Positions 24,752-30,642 of a stretch of DNA of 64,000 nt are shown piece after piece. Location of the stretch: assembly GCA_000002445.1 (NCBI GenBank), contig CH464491.1, positions 864,001-928,000 on the forward strand, read 5' to 3'. Made by a program: the position numbers and the translations under genes. How positions within the stretch are numbered: position 1 is the first letter of the stretch; the number at the start of each line of letters is the position of its first letter. The notes under the pieces were generated by a model. The model ran no database searches. It saw only the letters and a program-made list of their open reading frames with translations, and had not been told where the DNA came from. The stretch comes from Trypanosoma brucei. Its lineage: Eukaryota.

Positions 24752-25997
24752 CCACTAGTCAACAACGTCCGCCGAGGAGAGAGGGAGATCGACAAAACGA
24801 TCGCAATAACCCCTTTAAATTTTTAGAGAATATCAGCCCCGAAGAGAGATCATCACATACGTACCGACACAGGTAACCACAGTTACTAAGGGAAAATTCT
24901 GCGAACACGTTACACAAAAAACTCAAAGTTGTGGGAAAGGTAAGTAGTAGCCTTCGTAACCGGAAAAAACAACGCAACAACAGCTGGGACGGAACGCCGT
25001 ACAGCATCATATGAAGAATTCAAACCGCGGGCACTGACAAGGCATCAGTGAAACGAAAACGAGGACGAAGCCCAAACTAAAAACTTACCTACGCCAACGC
25101 GGCTCCACGACACTTTTCATCACTTAAGAAAAGCGCAGTCGCCGTCTTCCGCACCACCATTGCTACCAAAACAAGGCCCGTAGAGACCAGTTGAGCTTGC
25201 GCAAACATGGTAAAAGCGGTGCCTCAGCATCGATTTTTAGACAGTCAACTGCACGCGCAACTGCAAACGGGTAGAAGGTATCCAGAATATCCGGGTTGAG
25301 AAAATATACCGACTTTGGAGTAATATTCACCTTCTTGATTAAAGGCATGCTTTGGAAGCTGCGTACAGCGTGCCAGATATATGGTAGATTACTACCCGGC
25401 CATTGACAACAAGTACACGGAATTAAGCAAGCGAAATGACTCAGCCAAAAAAGAAAAATGAATCACCTCCCTAACTTCAGTAATTCAAACGCTATTTCCC
25501 TTTTTAGCGACAATAGAACCTGTCTTTCAACTGGAACAACTTGATGTGCCAACCACGGCTTTCCTCGGAACTCAAAAATACAATACCCCCCTCCTACCCC
25601 CCCCCAAAAAAAAAAAGAGAGAGAGAAAAAGCTAATAAAGATAACGCAAAAGACGGCAAAGCCCCCCCCCACACACACACGTTTCTGGACACGTGCTGTG
25701 CGCACGCACCGTACTGTCCTTATTTTTATTTTACCGTCAGACGTGGCAATGTACTACCCAATAAAGTTGGAAACAGGGATGGTACGTCTTTCCATAAAGA
25801 AACCCAAGTAGTTACGGTTATGCGCGAAAGTTTTGGATCGACGGAGGTGGTTGCCTACATGTCCCCCGAAAGTTATGGTAAAGACCGAACCGTCAAACGT
25901 AACACGAACATATCACCGAAACAATATATGAGGTGGCCTCCACCCTGCCCTCCGGAACATGGAGTCGGGCGGTCTGCGTTTAAGTGTGAAGACCGCA

Positions 25998-26153
25998 CCC
26001 CCCCCCCCCCCCAACAACCCTGCCGCCGGATGCCGACCCCATCTCAAGCCCCTGGATCCAAGGACCGCGAACGAAGCAGCGAACCATCCTGAAGATCCCT
26101 TGGGGACCGGCCCCGCACCGTCTTCCCGACACAACCGGCTTGGGGGGGGGGGG
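25998..26153. repeat. C15 homopolymer (25998-26012) and G12 homopolymer (26142-26153) about 130 nt apart. Potential long-range C:G stem or G4/i-motif pair
   Basis: Direct reading of the sequence. Both lie in the ORF-free 24.75-30.64 kb interval. Confidence 0.9.
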
Positions 26154-29100
26154 TGAAAAGGCCGGAGAAAGTGACCACCAGCCAGCTACCTCCACAACGC
26201 CAGTGCAGGGACCCTCAAATAATAACAGACTCAGATGCACGCAGCAACGGTGCCTTACGGGCCCTCAGCGACTTTTGATCACTCCTCCCCTCCCCCGCCC
26301 TCTTCTTTAACGGCGGCCTCGCGTGGGCTCACCACAAACGGTGGAGCTCTCAAAAGCCACGGAGCCGAAAAAACGGAGTCTGCTTCGCTGCCCAACTGGT
26401 AAAAGACACCATCGATTGCCCTCCAAGCAAATACAAAGAAGACTACACAACCTCCAAAAGGGCGCGGAAACACTCAACACCCCACCTCCCTTTACAGGCC
26501 CGGGGCCTCGCAGCACAACTTTAACCATCAGCCCTTCCGCGAGTAGAAAGCACGCCCCTCGCTCCTTTTTTTTTTTTGACAGTACGGGTTTCAAAAAAAA
26601 CACGGAGCGAAACCCCACGCTCTAGAGAGTGTTGAAGCAACGTGCGACGCCCACCCACAACGACCCCCGCGACCAGTGCACTCAATGGCAACAACAACAA
26701 CAACCCTCCGATATGTTTCATCTATGGCCGTTACGACCGCAGCCAAACAGAAAACCGCTGGGAAGCAAAGTCGTGTGCTGGCCACAAAGAAGACAAATAC
26801 CACCGGCTCCTCGGCAAGTCTGGATATCTCAAACTCGGCGGCGAGGCCCCCCATGCTCTGTTAAGGAAGGAGAACCCAGCTGGCGGCAAGGCACCCGACC
26901 GGATTGGCCTGAATTGAAGAGGTCGCAGCGTCAATCCACGGCGGGGCGCGCGACAGATCTGTCAGTGGACAAGGCCATTCCATTTGGAGCCCTTTTGCCA
27001 TGCGGAGAAGCCTCAAAGCAACATCAACAACAGCAACCTAACGCCACAGGAAATTGGCATGACGATGCCGATGCTCCGAAAGAGGGTTTGGAGACCAACT
27101 AACTTGATAGCGGTGAATCCACCGAAGCGCCCGAGATAACCGGGGAGGTTCCGTTTACCCGGTTCCGGCATAGCAGTCCCCTACTGCGAGAAGATGATTG
27201 ATACCAGTGTCGTTTGAAACGGGAGCATCAAAACATTTCGGCTTTGCAATCGGTGCAACAGAAAAGAGGAAAAAAAGGCGAAACTCAGATAGCAGCCTGC
27301 AGTGACTCTCGGCAGTGCCCAGTACGTCACGCCCATCCACTTCAAATATCACCTATCGCTAAGAGTGGCGGGATACCGTCACCAAATGTTTCCATCACTC
27401 CTAAAATACTGTGTTGCGATTTCGAAGTGGGACAGCCAAGCAAGCGTTGAAGATATATCGATGGAAAAAAGAAAGGGGCGTCGGCGGTTAGGTGATGTCC
27501 GCTACCGCAGTGCCCACGGCATCCGAGGGGAAGCGCAGTTGCCACAACCACGGCGCACGACTCCGCATAGTTCAATCCGACCTCTGAACATTCCACTATG
27601 TGCCAAGGGCAAGTGGGGGTAAAAAGTATACCAAGGACGACAGAGTAACCTGGATATGCCTGAATCCCTTCCCTAAACGCGCAAACTGACTGTGCAGTCC
27701 TGAAAACAGTAACACCGCACACGCCACGCACGGAGGAACGCAACACCACCCCAGGTTGGTTGATCAAACAAACAGGAAAGCAACATTCCGGGTGTTCGAA
27801 AGGAGAGCGAGAGAGCGACCACCAACTGGCGCCAAGGCTGCCGGAGAACAACAAAATCTCTCCGGGTTGTTAAAGCAGTTGGGGTGGAAGCAATAGTGAG
27901 AGGCAATACCGGAAGTGCTAGGCCCTTAAAGAATCCGGTACTATCCGAACAACAGGTTGCAGGAAATAACGGAAATTGGTGCACGAATGTGGTTGGTGGA
28001 ATTGGCAACGTGGTCACGTGATAGGACTCGTTCGACACACAGAATAAACACGCGGCGAAGGAGCAAAAGGGATGCAGGCGATGGGGACGTTGGTGTCATC
28101 AAAGGTACTTCAAAGGGTCCTCCACTGCCCAACAAAACGTGTGGAATGAAGCGCTCTCACAAAATGCATGTGGCAGGAGAACTGACCTGAGGTAGAAAGG
28201 CAGTGCAGTGATCTAGGGGTGAAGCGTGAGGAGTCCTCCCCACCGTTACCACAATACCAAGCCCTAAAAGTGCTAGGTGAAGAATGTGCGGTGGGGGACG
28301 CCGCGAAACGCGGTTTACTTTTTCAAGCGTCCGGCACATTTTCTGTGCAAGCTGTTCGGACTAAAGGAGTTGGAACCAAACACGAAGGTGCCCATCCCTT
28401 TTCCATCGAATGGACGAACCCAAAGTGGAGGGGTGAGGGGAGCAAAAACCTCCATCGGCTAAAAGTGTCATGTCGGAGTCTGCGGCCGGGTTTACCGCCG
28501 CCGAATCACCCAGTGCTGTGATAAGCGCGATGGGAACGGGCAACAGCGTAACGCAGCGAGAGGGTTGGAAGCCAAAGAACCGGATTGATTTAAACCGGAT
28601 GATAAACCAGATCGCGGTTTTCGTTAACGAGAGTCGTGTTGGGCCACCCATGGTCCACAATATAAATGATCACTTGAGGAGGAGGAAAGAAGGCACAAAT
28701 GGGGCGCATTTTTCTAGGGTGTTGGGCTCTGGCGCAAAGGCACGCTGGTCAGATTTAATGGGTATCCCCGCATGTGTTTCGTTGGCAACACGCTATCGTG
28801 ATGTCCACACTTTCTAGTTGCTCTTTTTTTTCCTACAGTAGAGACTCCGCGCGGCAACTCTTTCCGCTCGGACGCCCGACACCCATATGCGGCACAAGGT
28901 ATTCCCACTCCGGGGAAGGTCGGAAAGGTACATGTATGCCCCTGAAGACAACAGCAGTCGAGCTAGGACACGAAAAACCGTGTGCAGGCACGGCCGGACC
29001 ACCATATTCAACCGCTTTGTGAAGGTTGATACTCAGGGGGGGGGGGTAGAATAGTTACTTGTTATTCCAGGAAGACTTGCATTTGGTAGCAGTACCGAAA

Positions 29101-30321
29101 AGGGGGTTTACTCCACCTGTATGGCATCCACATTTGTTTTTTCAACTCTCAAAAAATTCCGTTATCTTTCACTCATTCATTGTCCCCCATTCGCCTTCAC
29201 TGCATTGGGTAGTGGTACAGGAGGACGAAGCGGCCGTGGGGATTCTCCCCCGTCCTCCATTTGGGCAAGGTATTAAGCCTATGGGGAAACAGTGGTGCGC
29301 AGGGACTTAATGGAGGCCTCCCACCTCGTCCAGACACCTTCCCCCATGGTGAAACAAGCTAACGCCCACAAACATTATTGAGGCTTAGCCGCTTTCGTGC
29401 GTTATCTTGGGGCCTTTTGCGACGAGCAAGAACCGGGAAGCAGAGGAACCGTTGTTTTTTTTTTTTTTTTGTAGGAGAGGATGACATAAGCCTTCCCACC
29501 ACGGTCGACGCAGTCAATGAGTTCTCCGTGGTCGAGGTCCTGGATACGTTTGAGCGACAGAATAGGGAATGTTTCTAAGGGGGGGGGGAATATTAGAAAT
29601 CACACATAACCAAGTGCTTTATACCCCAACGACGTTCCTCTCCATACACCGAAGTGCAGGTTAGGGTACTCTTTTTTTAGAAAAGCAAAACAAAATCAAT
29701 GCAATCATACGATATTACATAAAGGAGTAACAGCATATTTCCTGCATGTTCACCCATGCTAATCCGCAAATATATGCTTTATTTCCGTCACACTGAAGCG
29801 CCATGTAGACGCGTATTAACGGCAAAAGCACCAGCACCAACGCTTTACATACCGTTTCTTGAGTCCCGGCCCCAATAGCGTGTGGTAAAGTAACATAAAT
29901 GTCGACACAAGGCTATGAGGATGTTCCACTTTCACTTGGTAATGCGGGATGGGTCGGCTGCGGACGAAAAAGGAACACGGGAGTAATTCGGGCGATGTGG
30001 AGGTGCGAACGAATAAAAACGCACAAACACAAAGCGCAGAAATATTTTCAGGTTCAAGAGCAAAATGGAGTAAAACTCGATTCCCTGAGAGAAAAATAAA
30101 AAGAAAATGTGTACAAAACAATGTGGAGTAGTAAAAGTTGCTGCTACGTCGTTCACGCCCCTTATTGACGTCGCTCAGAACCGTCCTGCTCCCACCAATA
30201 AAGATACGAAACCCACCTTTCAGTAATTCTCCCAGTGAACCCAACGCCTGCCCCACGCAACCCTCGTTAAGCAAAAAAAAAAAACGATTATTACTATTCT
30301 TCTTTCTTGTCACTGTTCCTG

Positions 30322-30336
30322 ACACACACACACACA
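30322..30336. repeat. (AC)7 microsatellite
   Basis: acacacacacacaca followed by an A-run. Confidence 0.85.
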
Positions 30337-30608
30337 AAAAAAGCAGAATTGAGCTTTAGAAAGCGACGTAGACACCGGCGGCCATCGTCCGGCATCCACT
30401 TGACATATCATCCTCGCACCGAATGCTCGTTTTCGCCCAAAGGACCCAACGAGAACAGCGAGTGACACTAGAATCGGGACAACACGGATGGACATCTTCC
30501 CCGCATCCACGAACCAAAAAAGGTTAATAAAAAAGGGAAAGGTCCCTATGAGAAGGGATATGTGTCACTTTATGCTCATATGTGTCAACACCGACTTATG
30601 CACATATT

Positions 30609-30626
30609 ATATATATATATATATAT
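30609..30626. repeat. (AT)9 dinucleotide microsatellite in the 3' flank of the metacaspase gene
   Basis: atatatatatatatatat, 17-34 nt downstream (on the coding strand) of the metacaspase stop at 30643. Confidence 0.9.
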
Positions 30627-30642
30627 TTCATTGCTAAAGCTC

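What the first reader, a model, noticed from the sequence alone, without database searches (positions are those of the whole stretch)
24752..30642. 5.9 kb ORF-free interval inside a polycistronic unit, rich in long C/G homopolymers
Intergenic spacers elsewhere in this window are 0.4-1.7 kb. Here, between two same-strand genes, nearly 6 kb has no ORF over 173 aa in any frame and none that looks protein-like. The interval has an unusual density of homopolymers. These include C8 at about 25598, C9 at about 25666, C15 at 25998-26012, G12 at 26142-26153, G11 at 29036-29046 and G10 at 29579-29588. It also has runs of T/A of 15 nt or more, a (CAA)5 and a (AC)7. A C15/G12 pair 130 nt apart could form a long stem or G4/i-motif structures. 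Candidate explanations are an unannotated long ncRNA or snoRNA cluster, a decayed retroposon (RIME/ingi/DIRE-like) relic, or an internal transcription initiation/termination zone.
Basis: seen in the sequence. Interest (0 to 1): 0.5.

Follow-up and report, generated by a model that had tools for sequence, protein, structure and literature searches.

The report
Long non-coding spacer after MCA1
This 5.9 kb stretch of Trypanosoma brucei chromosome 11 is a real but ordinary non-coding, fast-evolving spacer near the start of a gene cluster, most likely read through and cut into untranslated RNA, and its G/C runs vary in length between strains.

Summary
The window is T. brucei TREU927 chromosome 11 (v4 coordinate = window + 864000). 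The interval lies between the metacaspase MCA1 (Tb927.11.3220) and a DOT1-domain gene (Tb11.02.0710). It sits 1-7 kb into a minus-strand polycistron that starts at a divergent strand-switch region centred near 35.5 kb.

The interval is real. It has the same length in three independent Trypanozoon assemblies. It shows no coding signal, no Pfam domain relics, no Rfam or tRNA hits and no repeats. It has no DNA or translated similarity outside Trypanozoon.

It is not strictly ORF-free. The reference annotates a 182-aa plus-strand orphan ORF, Tb11.02.0720. That ORF is frameshifted in sister taxa, has no homologue among 1.84 billion proteins, and gave no transcript in published RNA-seq.

Published procyclic data place a low-abundance spliced, polyadenylated RNA (Tb11.NT.34) at 25597-24834. 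They list no internal transcription start here.

G/C runs are about five-fold enriched over other spacers (p=0.03), but their lengths vary between strains (C15 here is C5 elsewhere).

Best reading: a transcribed intercistronic spacer, probably a long MCA1 3'UTR and/or unstable RNA, lying at an old synteny breakpoint upstream of the DOT1-like gene. Interest is low.

The parts
24752..30642 (-). The whole interval. A non-coding spacer specific to Trypanozoon, lying between MCA1 and the DOT1-like gene on the transcribed (minus) strand.
   Evidence: ORF list and stop-to-stop maxima. Codon log-likelihood like other spacers (mean -4.8 against +14 to +28 for genes). No Pfam relics. No Rfam or tRNA hits. 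Present in Tb927, DAL972 and T. equiperdum IVM-t1.
24834..25597 (-). Published novel transcript Tb11.NT.34 (763 nt, abundance value 1.34). It doubles as the alternative long 5'UTR segment of the DOT1-like gene Tb11.02.0710, whose main splice site is at 24898.
   Evidence: Kolev 2010 Tables S7 and S3, with offset 864000. The offset was validated by AG acceptors and polypyrimidine tracts at exactly the predicted bases.
25598..25631 (-). The strongest polypyrimidine tract of the interval on the minus strand (CTTTTTCTCTCTCTCTTTTTTTTTTT, 25631-25606), followed by G9 (25605-25597, immediately downstream on the minus strand and overlapping the NT.34 coordinates) and then the TAG splice acceptor, used at about 25597. 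It is formed by the plus-strand C9/A11/(GA)n tract.
   Evidence: Sequence context. The 5' end of NT.34 maps here.
25598..30642 (-). About 5.0 kb with no mapped transcript of its own. Inferred to be the MCA1 3'UTR (up to about 4.9 kb if polyadenylated about 142 nt upstream of the 25597 acceptor) and/or unstable intercistronic RNA. Weaker polypyrimidine tracts at 30087-30107, 29679-29695, 27463-27478 and 27260-27283 could give shorter isoforms.
   Evidence: Inference from splice/poly(A) coupling (median 142 nt) and the 3'UTR range of 10 to about 6000 nt in Kolev 2010. Tract list. No other novel transcript is listed between 888834 and 895905.
25544..26092 (+). Annotated orphan ORF Tb11.02.0720 (182 aa), antisense to the polycistron. 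Judged spurious.
   Evidence: Exact match to XP_828403.1, a singleton cluster. Listed among annotated ORFs without a detectable transcript (Kolev Table S2). Frameshifted with a stop at codon 32-33 in DAL972 and IVM-t1. The only hit among 1.84 billion representatives is itself. Non-coding codon score.
25597..26153 (.). Cluster of G/C homopolymers: C9 25597-25605, C9 25662-25670 followed by (CA)5, C15 25998-12, G12 26142-53. All vary in length between strains.
   Evidence: C15 in Tb927 is C5 in DAL972 and IVM-t1. The two C9 runs are replaced by longer, interrupted C-tracts there, and G12 is G11-G13.
26001..27000 (.). GC-rich island (GC 0.58). It is one of only two 1-kb bins in the window with GC of 0.57 or more. 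The other is the core of the strand-switch region, 35001-36000.
   Evidence: Composition profiles.
29036..29588 (.). Second group of runs: G11 29036-46, T16 29455-70, G10 29579-88. All vary in length between strains.
30643..31761 (-). Upstream flanking gene: metacaspase MCA1 (Tb927.11.3220 / Tb11.02.0730), the first annotated ORF of the polycistron.
   Evidence: Pfam Peptidase_C14 and exact protein look-up. Kolev Table S14. Gene identity from PMC7952579.
23846..24751 (-). Downstream flanking gene: DOT1-domain methyltransferase-like protein (Tb11.02.0710). Its mRNA runs 24898 to 23018.
   Evidence: Kolev Table S3.

Best explanation
The interval is an ordinary but unusually long transcribed non-coding spacer.

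It lies in the first ~10 kb of the Pol II polycistron that starts at the divergent strand-switch region centred near window 35.5 kb. Pol II reads through it. Coupled trans-splicing and polyadenylation cut the precursor only where usable polypyrimidine tracts exist.

The dominant tract (25606-25631, acceptor about 25597) gives the low-abundance RNA Tb11.NT.34, which is also the long 5'UTR isoform of the DOT1-like gene. The remaining ~5 kb is MCA1 3'UTR (up to about 4.9 kb) and/or rapidly degraded intercistronic RNA.

The sequence itself is unconstrained and specific to Trypanozoon. The position is an old synteny breakpoint and polycistron start upstream of the DOT1-like gene. In the T. brucei group the divergent metacaspase paralogue MCA1 sits inside that gene-poor region. 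As a result, part of the former upstream region now appears as a gap 'inside' the unit.

The G/C homopolymers are slippage-prone tracts typical of this gene-poor, strand-switch-proximal DNA, not conserved structural elements.

Shown: identity of the locus, absence of coding, ncRNA-family or repeat signals, strain polymorphism, published transcript ends, and the published unit map. Inferred: the length of the MCA1 3'UTR, the read-through fate of the middle 5 kb, and the evolutionary scenario.
For: Locus identity. The DOT1-like and Tb11.02.0720 proteins are TREU927-only records, and MCA1 is also on the TREU927 contig. Kolev coordinates minus 864000 fall on AG acceptors preceded by polypyrimidine tracts.

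Non-coding nature. The codon score resembles other spacers. The two longest ORFs are broken in sister genomes. There are 0 credible Pfam hits in 85 fragments, and Tb11.02.0720 has no homologue.

No known RNA family or tRNA. No repeats and no copy elsewhere in the window.

Unconstrained evolution. The interval differs from T. b. gambiense by 9.2 substitutions and 2.0 indels per kb, like the strand-switch region (9.7 and 2.7). All 12 indels lie at or beside homopolymer or microsatellite tracts, and C15 is C5 elsewhere.

Part of one unit. Kolev Table S14 lists Tb11.02.0730..Tb11.22.0001 as a single 'Divergent' unit, although the same table lists many 'Internal' starts elsewhere. Novel transcripts NT.36, NT.35 and NT.34 lie on the minus strand and NT.37 and NT.38 on the plus strand. 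Together with the compositional switch at ~35.5 kb, this places the start near 35 kb.

A 3'UTR of ~4.9 kb is within the published range (up to ~6 kb), and PAS-to-SAS coupling has a median of 142 nt. MCA1 is developmentally regulated.

Breakpoint. In Leishmania the DOT1-like gene is the first gene after a 1.15 kb divergent switch. T. congolense has 9.4 kb of ORF-free, domain-free DNA upstream. T. melophagium has a lineage-specific surface-protein-like gene there.

MCA1's best hits outside Trypanozoon (45-49% identity) are no closer than its paralogue MCA2 (47%). The best T. congolense hit lies in a different gene neighbourhood, next to a helicase-like gene.
Against: The MCA1 poly(A) site was not retrievable because Kolev Tables S5 and S13 are truncated or lack the gene. 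Whether the middle 5 kb is 3'UTR, separate lncRNAs or degraded RNA is therefore unproven.

The transcript data are from procyclic forms only.

The interval's GC content (0.50, island 0.58) is higher than most spacers (0.38-0.49). GC skew is positive only at 27-30 kb within the minus-strand unit. A purely neutral UTR model does not explain either.

The 27-29 kb segment has no indels and somewhat fewer substitutions.

The evolutionary scenario rests on absence of hits and on fragmented assemblies. The T. vivax locus was uninformative.
Confidence: 0.6

Rival explanations
1. The interval holds a secondary or ancestral Pol II start region for the DOT1-like gene and everything downstream. It might be active only in some life stages. 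The GC-rich island at 26-27 kb and the flanking G runs would form part of a dispersed GT-rich promoter and open chromatin.
For: The DOT1-like gene is the first gene of its unit in Leishmania, and synteny breaks just upstream of it in every species examined.

The island at 26-27 kb (GC 0.58) resembles the core of the true strand-switch region (35-36 kb, GC 0.57, G16).

Runs to the left of ~26.08 kb are G on the coding (minus) strand, and runs to the right are G on the plus strand. GC skew turns positive at 27-30 kb, giving a second V in cumulative skew.

Wedel 2017 reports that GT-rich elements with homopolymeric G and T stretches can drive directional transcription. It also reports that H2A.Z domains are ~10 kb wide and cover the first few genes of a unit. 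G4 peaks are ~5-fold enriched at TSS and TTS.
Against: Kolev's 5'-triphosphate map lists no internal start between Tb11.02.0730 and Tb11.02.0710, yet it calls many internal starts elsewhere.

No 120-nt window anywhere reaches 80% GT on either strand.

The orientation of runs in the true strand-switch region is not consistent either. C15 is specific to TREU927. AT skew does not flip where GC skew does.
Confidence: 0.15
2. The middle of the interval encodes one or more functional long non-coding RNAs, for example regulators of MCA1 or of differentiation, rather than passive UTR or spacer.
For: T. brucei has more than a thousand annotated lncRNAs, some of them functional (abstract of PMC9200285).

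The 27-29 kb segment has no indels and ~7 substitutions per kb, against 13.8 in 24.75-27 kb.

Several usable polypyrimidine tracts exist on the minus strand. MCA1 is needed for metacyclogenesis and is regulated.
Against: Kolev 2010 lists only NT.34 at the edge of the interval. The nanopore lncRNA list has nothing here; its nearest chr 11 entry most likely equals NT.36 in the strand-switch region.

There is no conservation outside Trypanozoon at the DNA or translated level.

The divergence difference rests on small counts, and there is no structural signal. The lncRNA catalogue of PMC9200285 could not be consulted.
Confidence: 0.12
3. The interval is the decayed remnant of a gene or retroelement (ingi/RIME/DIRE-like, or a lineage-specific surface-protein gene like the one found at this position in T. 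melophagium). It would now be beyond recognition.
For: The GC content (0.50; 0.52-0.58 at 26-29 kb) equals or exceeds that of coding sequence (0.50) and is above most spacers.

The equivalent T. congolense region is also ORF-free with GC 0.49-0.54 over most of its length.

T. melophagium and T. theileri carry lineage-specific genes or assembly gaps at this position.
Against: Pfam found no credible hit (RT, endonuclease, RNase H, VSG, ESAG, RHS or other) in 85 fragments here, only two unrelated chance-level matches (E>=0.025), and none in 101 fragments in T. congolense.

There is no codon signal. Translated comparisons found no similarity to other species' loci or to the MCA and DOT1 families. 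There are no internal or window-wide repeats.
Confidence: 0.08
4. The interval contains a real protein-coding gene (Tb11.02.0720 or a frameshifted ORF), or it is an assembly artefact.
For: Tb11.02.0720 is annotated in the reference genome. The T. equiperdum OVI contig ends inside the interval.
Against: The ORF is antisense to the unit, was untranscribed in RNA-seq, is frameshifted in two sister genomes and has no homologue.

The interval is collinear and of equal length in the TREU927, DAL972 and PacBio IVM-t1 assemblies.
Confidence: 0.02

Closest known systems
Long 3'UTRs and intercistronic spacers of T. brucei Pol II polycistrons (Kolev et al. 2010; Siegel et al. 2010)
   Same: It lies between same-strand genes inside a mapped unit and has no credible ORF. 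It is bounded by a mapped trans-splice acceptor with a polypyrimidine tract. Its length is within the published 3'UTR range (10 to ~6000 nt). It contains a 'UTR-internal' low-abundance transcript and an annotated ORF that makes no transcript of its own.
   Different: It is at the extreme of the length distribution (median 3'UTR 388 nt). Its GC content is as high as coding DNA. It is richer in G/C homopolymers than the other spacers of the window. The MCA1 poly(A) site was not seen here.
Broad Pol II transcription start regions at divergent strand-switch regions (Siegel 2009; Kolev 2010; Wedel 2017)
   Same: It lies 1-7 kb into a unit whose start is ~35 kb, so inside the ~10 kb span over which H2A.Z is reported to cover the first genes. 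It shares G/C-run richness and a GC-rich island with the adjacent strand-switch region. It is flanked by low-abundance non-coding transcripts.
   Different: No initiation was mapped inside it. It is downstream of the first gene rather than between the divergent units. No chromatin data could be examined.
ingi/RIME/DIRE retroposon relics
   Same: These relics are often found in gene-poor, strand-switch-proximal DNA of T. brucei. The interval is ORF-poor and contains A-runs.
   Different: There are no RT or endonuclease remnants, no repeat copies in the window and no recognisable poly(A) tail with target-site duplication. Nucleotide consensi were not available to test.

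Membership tests
Known structured ncRNA / snoRNA cluster (Rfam families, tRNA) | Match to a covariance model or tRNA model | tested here: not met
   Rfam gathering search of the whole window gave 0 hits. E-value mode on 24700-30700 gave only a chance match to a bacterial sRNA (E=0.96). ARAGORN found 0 tRNAs.
ingi/RIME/DIRE non-LTR retroposon relic | Remnants of reverse transcriptase, AP-endonuclease or RNase H coding sequence | tested here: not met
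   hmmscan of 85 six-frame fragments of 45 aa or more against Pfam-A found no RT, endonuclease or RNase H match; the two matches listed were to unrelated families at chance level (E>=0.025 over 85 queries). The codon score is non-coding throughout.
ingi/RIME/DIRE non-LTR retroposon relic | Nucleotide similarity to the element consensus (including the conserved 5' ~79-nt signature) and many dispersed copies in the genome | not testable with these tools
Within the 64 kb window and the fetched loci no second copy exists.
Protein-coding gene (Tb11.02.0720 or other ORF) | ORF preserved in close relatives, with homologues, transcript and coding-like composition | tested here: not met
   Frameshift and early stop in DAL972 and IVM-t1. 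Singleton cluster. Only a self-hit among 1.84 billion representatives. Listed as making no detectable transcript. Negative codon score.
Pol II transcription start region (internal TSR) | Mapped 5'-triphosphate RNA ends or a called unit boundary at the site | tested here: not met
   Kolev 2010 Table S14 lists Tb11.02.0730..Tb11.22.0001 as one 'Divergent' unit with no 'Internal' entry. The data are from procyclic forms only.
Pol II transcription start region (internal TSR) | H2A.Z/H2B.V/H4K10ac-enriched, MNase-sensitive chromatin | not testable with these tools
   No ChIP-seq tracks were available. From position alone (1-7 kb into the unit) it probably lies inside the ~10 kb domain described in Wedel 2017.
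Pol II transcription start region (internal TSR) | GT-rich elements on the coding strand | tested here: inconclusive
   The minus strand carries G9, T11, (TG)5 and G15 at 25597-26012. However, no 120-nt window reaches 80% GT, and G runs on the other strand follow immediately.
Intercistronic spacer / long 3'UTR of a trypanosome polycistron | Lies between same-strand genes of one mapped unit and lacks a gene of its own | tested here: met
Intercistronic spacer / long 3'UTR of a trypanosome polycistron | Bounded by mapped processing sites (downstream splice acceptor with polypyrimidine tract; upstream gene's poly(A) site) | tested here: inconclusive
   The acceptor at ~25597 with a 26-nt tract is mapped. 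The MCA1 poly(A) site was not retrievable from the truncated tables.
G-quadruplex / i-motif or long-stem regulatory element | Canonical G4 motif or stable stem that is conserved among close relatives | tested here: not met
   Only one G3+N1-7 x4 motif was found, and it depends on C15. C15 is C5 in DAL972 and IVM-t1. The fold z-score is -0.79.

The most novel reading that the evidence does not exclude
The GC-rich island with oppositely oriented G runs at about 25.6-27 kb is a cryptic or stage-specific bidirectional Pol II start. It would be the ancestral promoter region of the DOT1-like unit, retained after MCA1 came to lie upstream. In that case MCA1 and the rest of the polycistron could be driven semi-independently during differentiation.
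Probability: 0.1. Interest if true: 0.4.

Novelty: already known. Interest (0 to 1): 0.12.

Why it matters
It matters little beyond annotation hygiene. The result indicates that Tb11.02.0720 (presumably Tb927.11.3210 in the current numbering) should be regarded as a spurious gene model. It also suggests that MCA1, a regulated pseudo-peptidase needed for metacyclogenesis, may carry one of the longest 3'UTRs in the genome, which would be relevant to its post-transcriptional control. Finally, it illustrates that a 'gap inside a polycistron' next to a strand-switch region can be a leftover of an old unit boundary or synteny breakpoint. No new class of element is indicated.

Tried and rejected
- snoRNA or ncRNA cluster: rejected by Rfam in both modes and ARAGORN.
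- Decayed gene or retroelement: codon log-likelihood scan, Pfam on 85 fragments, tblastn of 176 six-frame fragments against seven loci from other species, and blastp against all 135 fetched proteins including the MCA and DOT1 families. All were negative.
- Tandem or dispersed repeats: the repeat finder, TRF and self-BLAST found only homopolymer matches.
- Cross-species conserved non-coding blocks: sensitive blastn against T. congolense, T. melophagium, T. rangeli, T. grayi and Leishmania found none.
- C15/G12 stem and G4: rejected.
- Assembly artefact: rejected.
- Small ORFs annotated in the T. congolense and T. theileri upstream regions: no counterpart in the window.
- The T. congolense 309-aa gene upstream of the 9.4 kb gap could not be identified; the protein search found no candidate.
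- The T. vivax metacaspase contig was uninformative.
- Literature routes that failed: no held supplements for PMC9200285 (lncRNA catalogue) or PMC2926603 (UTR maps). There were no gene-ID hits in PMC10048164 or PMC8788480. Siegel 2009 is not held. No paper mentions Tb927.11.3200/3210.
- Bacterial promoter/terminator scans and the phage, plasmid and E. coli collections were not used because they are irrelevant to a trypanosome.

Full report
**Where the window comes from**

Exact-protein look-ups place three window proteins on the T. b. brucei TREU927 chromosome 11 contig. The 301-aa DOT1-like protein and Tb11.02.0720 occur only in TREU927 records. The identical MCA1 sequence is shared with T. 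b. gambiense and T. equiperdum.

The window is 99.8% identical to a T. equiperdum OVI contig. It is 98.7% identical to T. b. gambiense DAL972 chromosome 11 and 98.5% identical to the PacBio T. equiperdum IVM-t1 chromosome.

Supplementary tables of Kolev et al. 2010 (PMC2936537) give Tb11.02.0710 at 888751-887846 and Tb11.02.0720 at 889544-890092 on Tb927_11_01_v4. These equal window 24751-23846 and 25544-26092, so window coordinate = v4 coordinate - 864000.

I checked this offset independently. Every published splice site I converted falls directly after an AG preceded by a polypyrimidine tract. The RPL44 poly(A) site gives the tabulated 83-nt 3'UTR.

**Gene map**

- Minus strand: a 1650-aa conserved hypothetical gene (17969-22921).
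- Minus strand: a DOT1-domain protein, Tb11.02.0710 (23846-24751).
- The interval.
- Minus strand: metacaspase MCA1, Tb927.11.3220 (30643-31761).
- An 8.6 kb divergent strand-switch region.
- Plus strand: RPL44, CCT-zeta and a dynein heavy chain.

**Check of the observation**

The 5891-nt gap is real and is 3.4 times the next largest same-strand spacer. All the listed C/G runs exist within a few bases of the stated positions. So do (CAA)5, (AC)7 and a T16.

Six G/C runs of 9 nt or more compares with a mean of 0.095 in Markov-1 simulations. The other spacers of the window have 2 such runs in 10.6 kb (p=0.028), and the strand-switch region has 4 in 8.6 kb.

Three details are off:
- A 183-aa (TTG) or 182-aa (ATG) ORF lies at 25541/25544-26092 on the plus strand and is an annotated gene model.
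- Only one A/T run reaches 15 nt.
- A/T runs are not enriched.

**Is anything encoded?**

- *Coding signal.* A codon log-likelihood scan trained on the window's genes gives a mean of -4.8 for the interval. Other spacers score -0.5 to -12.7, and genes score +14 to +28.
- *ORFs.* The annotated ORF Tb11.02.0720 and the 173-aa minus-strand ORF are frameshifted with early stops in DAL972 and IVM-t1.
- *Homologues of Tb11.02.0720.* It is a singleton cluster. It hits only itself among 1.84 billion representatives. Kolev Table S2 lists it among annotated ORFs that gave no detectable transcript.
- *Domain relics.* Pfam found nothing credible in 85 six-frame fragments.
- *Translated comparisons.* Comparisons with seven loci from other species and with all fetched MCA and DOT1 proteins found nothing.
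- *Known RNAs.* Rfam in both modes and ARAGORN found nothing beyond one chance-level match to a bacterial sRNA (E=0.96).
- *Repeats.* There are none beyond homopolymers, and no second copy in the window.

**Is it an artefact, and is it conserved?**

The interval is collinear and of equal length in three independent assemblies. Against T. b. gambiense it shows 9.2 substitutions and 2.0 indels per kb, like the strand-switch region (9.7 and 2.7).

All 12 indels sit at or beside homopolymer or microsatellite tracts. C15 is C5 in both other genomes, and the other runs vary by 1-8 nt.

The C15/G12 stem is no more stable than shuffled sequence (z = -0.79). The only canonical G4 motif depends on C15. 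The runs are therefore length-variable tracts consistent with replication slippage, not conserved structural elements.

The 27-29 kb segment has no indels and somewhat fewer substitutions. The counts are small, and I leave this unexplained.

**Published transcript and start-site evidence (procyclic forms; Kolev 2010)**

Table S14 lists a single unit, Tb11.02.0730..Tb11.22.0001 (minus strand, 'Divergent'). Its partner is Tb11.02.0740..Tb11.02.1040 (plus strand). No 'Internal' entry falls between MCA1 and Tb11.02.0710, although many internal starts are called elsewhere.

Table S7 lists the following novel spliced, polyadenylated transcripts:

| Transcript | Window coordinates | Strand | Note |
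|---|---|---|---|
| NT.36 | 34557 to 33561 | minus | |
| NT.35 | 33449 to 31905 | minus | |
| NT.37 | 36939 to 38300 | plus | |
| NT.38 | 38371 to 40197 | plus | |
| NT.34 | 25597 to 24834 | minus | inside the interval; 763 nt, value 1.34 |

The CA/GT composition flips sharply at ~35.5 kb inside a GC-rich core carrying G16. Together with the transcripts, this puts the divergent start near 35 kb. The interval is therefore 4.9 to 10.7 kb downstream of it.

Table S3 marks Tb11.02.0710 as having an alternative 5'UTR site, with its mRNA at 24898 to 23018. NT.34 fits the 'UTR-internal' transcript class the paper describes.

The NT.34 acceptor uses the best polypyrimidine tract of the interval.

Nothing is listed for 25598-30642. 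The paper reports a median of 142 nt between a splice site and the upstream poly(A) site, and 3'UTRs of up to ~6 kb. A poly(A) site near 25.74 kb is therefore expected. If it belongs to MCA1, the 3'UTR is ~4.9 kb. Weaker tracts, for example 30087-30107, could give a conventional ~0.4 kb UTR plus unstable downstream RNA.

The MCA1 poly(A) site itself was not retrievable. A nanopore lncRNA list has no entry here. Its one nearby entry matches NT.36 in length and strand if v5.1 = v4 + 20,352.

**Evolutionary context**

Homologues of the DOT1-like gene occur throughout the trypanosomatids. Downstream synteny (the 1650-aa gene, the gene at 16956-17591 and DER1) is conserved in T. grayi, T. theileri, T. 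melophagium and T. rangeli, and the T. congolense contig reaches only into the 1650-aa gene.

What lies upstream differs in every species:
- *Leishmania:* a 1.15 kb divergent switch to DER1 on the other strand, so the DOT1-like gene heads a unit.
- *T. melophagium:* a surface-protein-like gene and junk ORFs.
- *T. theileri:* six assembly gaps.
- *T. grayi and T. rangeli:* contig ends 0.6-1.1 kb upstream.
- *T. congolense:* 9.4 kb with no ORF over 210 aa, no Pfam relic, GC 0.49-0.54 over most of its length, and no similarity to the T. brucei interval.

MCA1's best hits outside Trypanozoon (45-49% identity) are no closer than its own paralogue MCA2 (47%). The best T. congolense hit sits beside a helicase-like gene, a different neighbourhood from MCA1's. 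The T. vivax contig is uninformative.

The simplest reading is that the region upstream of the DOT1-like gene is an old unit boundary or breakpoint filled with lineage-specific DNA. In Trypanozoon, MCA1 lies within it. This splits a ~15.6 kb gene-poor zone (24.75-40.35 kb) into the 'interval' and the present strand-switch region. This scenario is inference.

**Most likely mechanism**

Pol II starting near 35 kb reads through MCA1 and the interval. Processing occurs only at usable polypyrimidine/AG sites. This gives MCA1 mRNA with a long and/or heterogeneous 3'UTR, NT.34 (or the long 5'UTR isoform), and the DOT1-like mRNA. The rest is degraded.

According to Wedel 2017, H2A.Z domains of ~10 kb cover the first genes of each unit. 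Homopolymeric G/T stretches also deplete nucleosomes. The interval probably shares the open chromatin of the start region, which may tolerate or favour such runs. I could not test this.

**Rivals**

- An internal or ancestral start region (0.15).
  - For: the GC-rich island, the skew reversal at 27-30 kb, and the DOT1-like gene heading its unit in Leishmania.
  - Against: the published start-site map.
- Functional lncRNAs (0.12).
- An unrecognisable gene or retroelement relic (0.08). The coding-like GC content is the only hint.
- A real gene or an assembly artefact (0.02).

**Verdict**

The locus is in a well-studied reference genome, its edge transcript and its spurious ORF were already reported in 2010, and nothing points to a new kind of element. 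Interest 0.12; novelty: already known.

Noticed in passing
window 31762-40345: The divergent strand-switch region has a sharp compositional strand flip at ~35.5 kb inside a GC-rich core (35001-36000, GC 0.57) carrying G16 at 35674-35689. Four published low-abundance novel transcripts flank the core: NT.36 34557->33561 and NT.35 33449->31905 on the minus strand, and NT.37 36939->38300 and NT.38 38371->40197 on the plus strand.
   Followed up: partly
window 30643-31761 (-): MCA1 has HYSGYG and DCSHAG where MCA2 has HYSGHG and DC(C/G)HSG, so both catalytic residues are replaced (a pseudo-peptidase). No hit outside Trypanozoon is closer than its own paralogue MCA2, and the best T. congolense hit lies next to a helicase-like gene.
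   Followed up: partly
window 23846-24751 (-); L008 10001-10762: The DOT1-domain protein begins with a stretch that reads as hydrophobic. In Leishmania it is the first gene of a unit, 1.15 kb from DER1 on the opposite strand. The DER1 and 13852-15033 block, which is downstream on the same strand in trypanosomes, is inverted there.
   Followed up: partly
L006 1-597; L010 1-1090; L005 2288-8980; L003 end (window ~27961): Assemblies of several species break or have gaps just upstream of the DOT1-like gene. The T. grayi and T. rangeli contigs end there, T. theileri has six N-gaps, and the T. equiperdum OVI contig ends inside the interval. This suggests the region is hard to assemble across the genus.
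   Followed up: no
L011 (T. equiperdum IVM-t1, CM010682.1): The annotation of this PacBio assembly truncates MCA1 to 225 aa and calls no DOT1-like gene, although the DNA is collinear. Homopolymer indel errors are the probable cause.
   Followed up: no
window 27001-29000: Between T. b. brucei and T. b. gambiense this 2 kb has no indels and 7 substitutions per kb, against 13.8 per kb in 24752-27000. It is also the only part of the minus-strand unit with positive GC skew. The counts are small and it remains unexplained.
   Followed up: partly
window 23846-24751 vs L002: The DOT1-like coding sequence differs from DAL972 by 9 substitutions and one indel in 906 nt. The gambiense protein is flagged 'LOW QUALITY PROTEIN' and called at 278 aa. 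This is higher divergence than the neighbouring genes show.
   Followed up: no
window 57548-58297 (+): Published novel transcript Tb11.NT.39 (749 nt) occupies most of the spacer between the dynein heavy chain gene and the next plus-strand gene.
   Followed up: no
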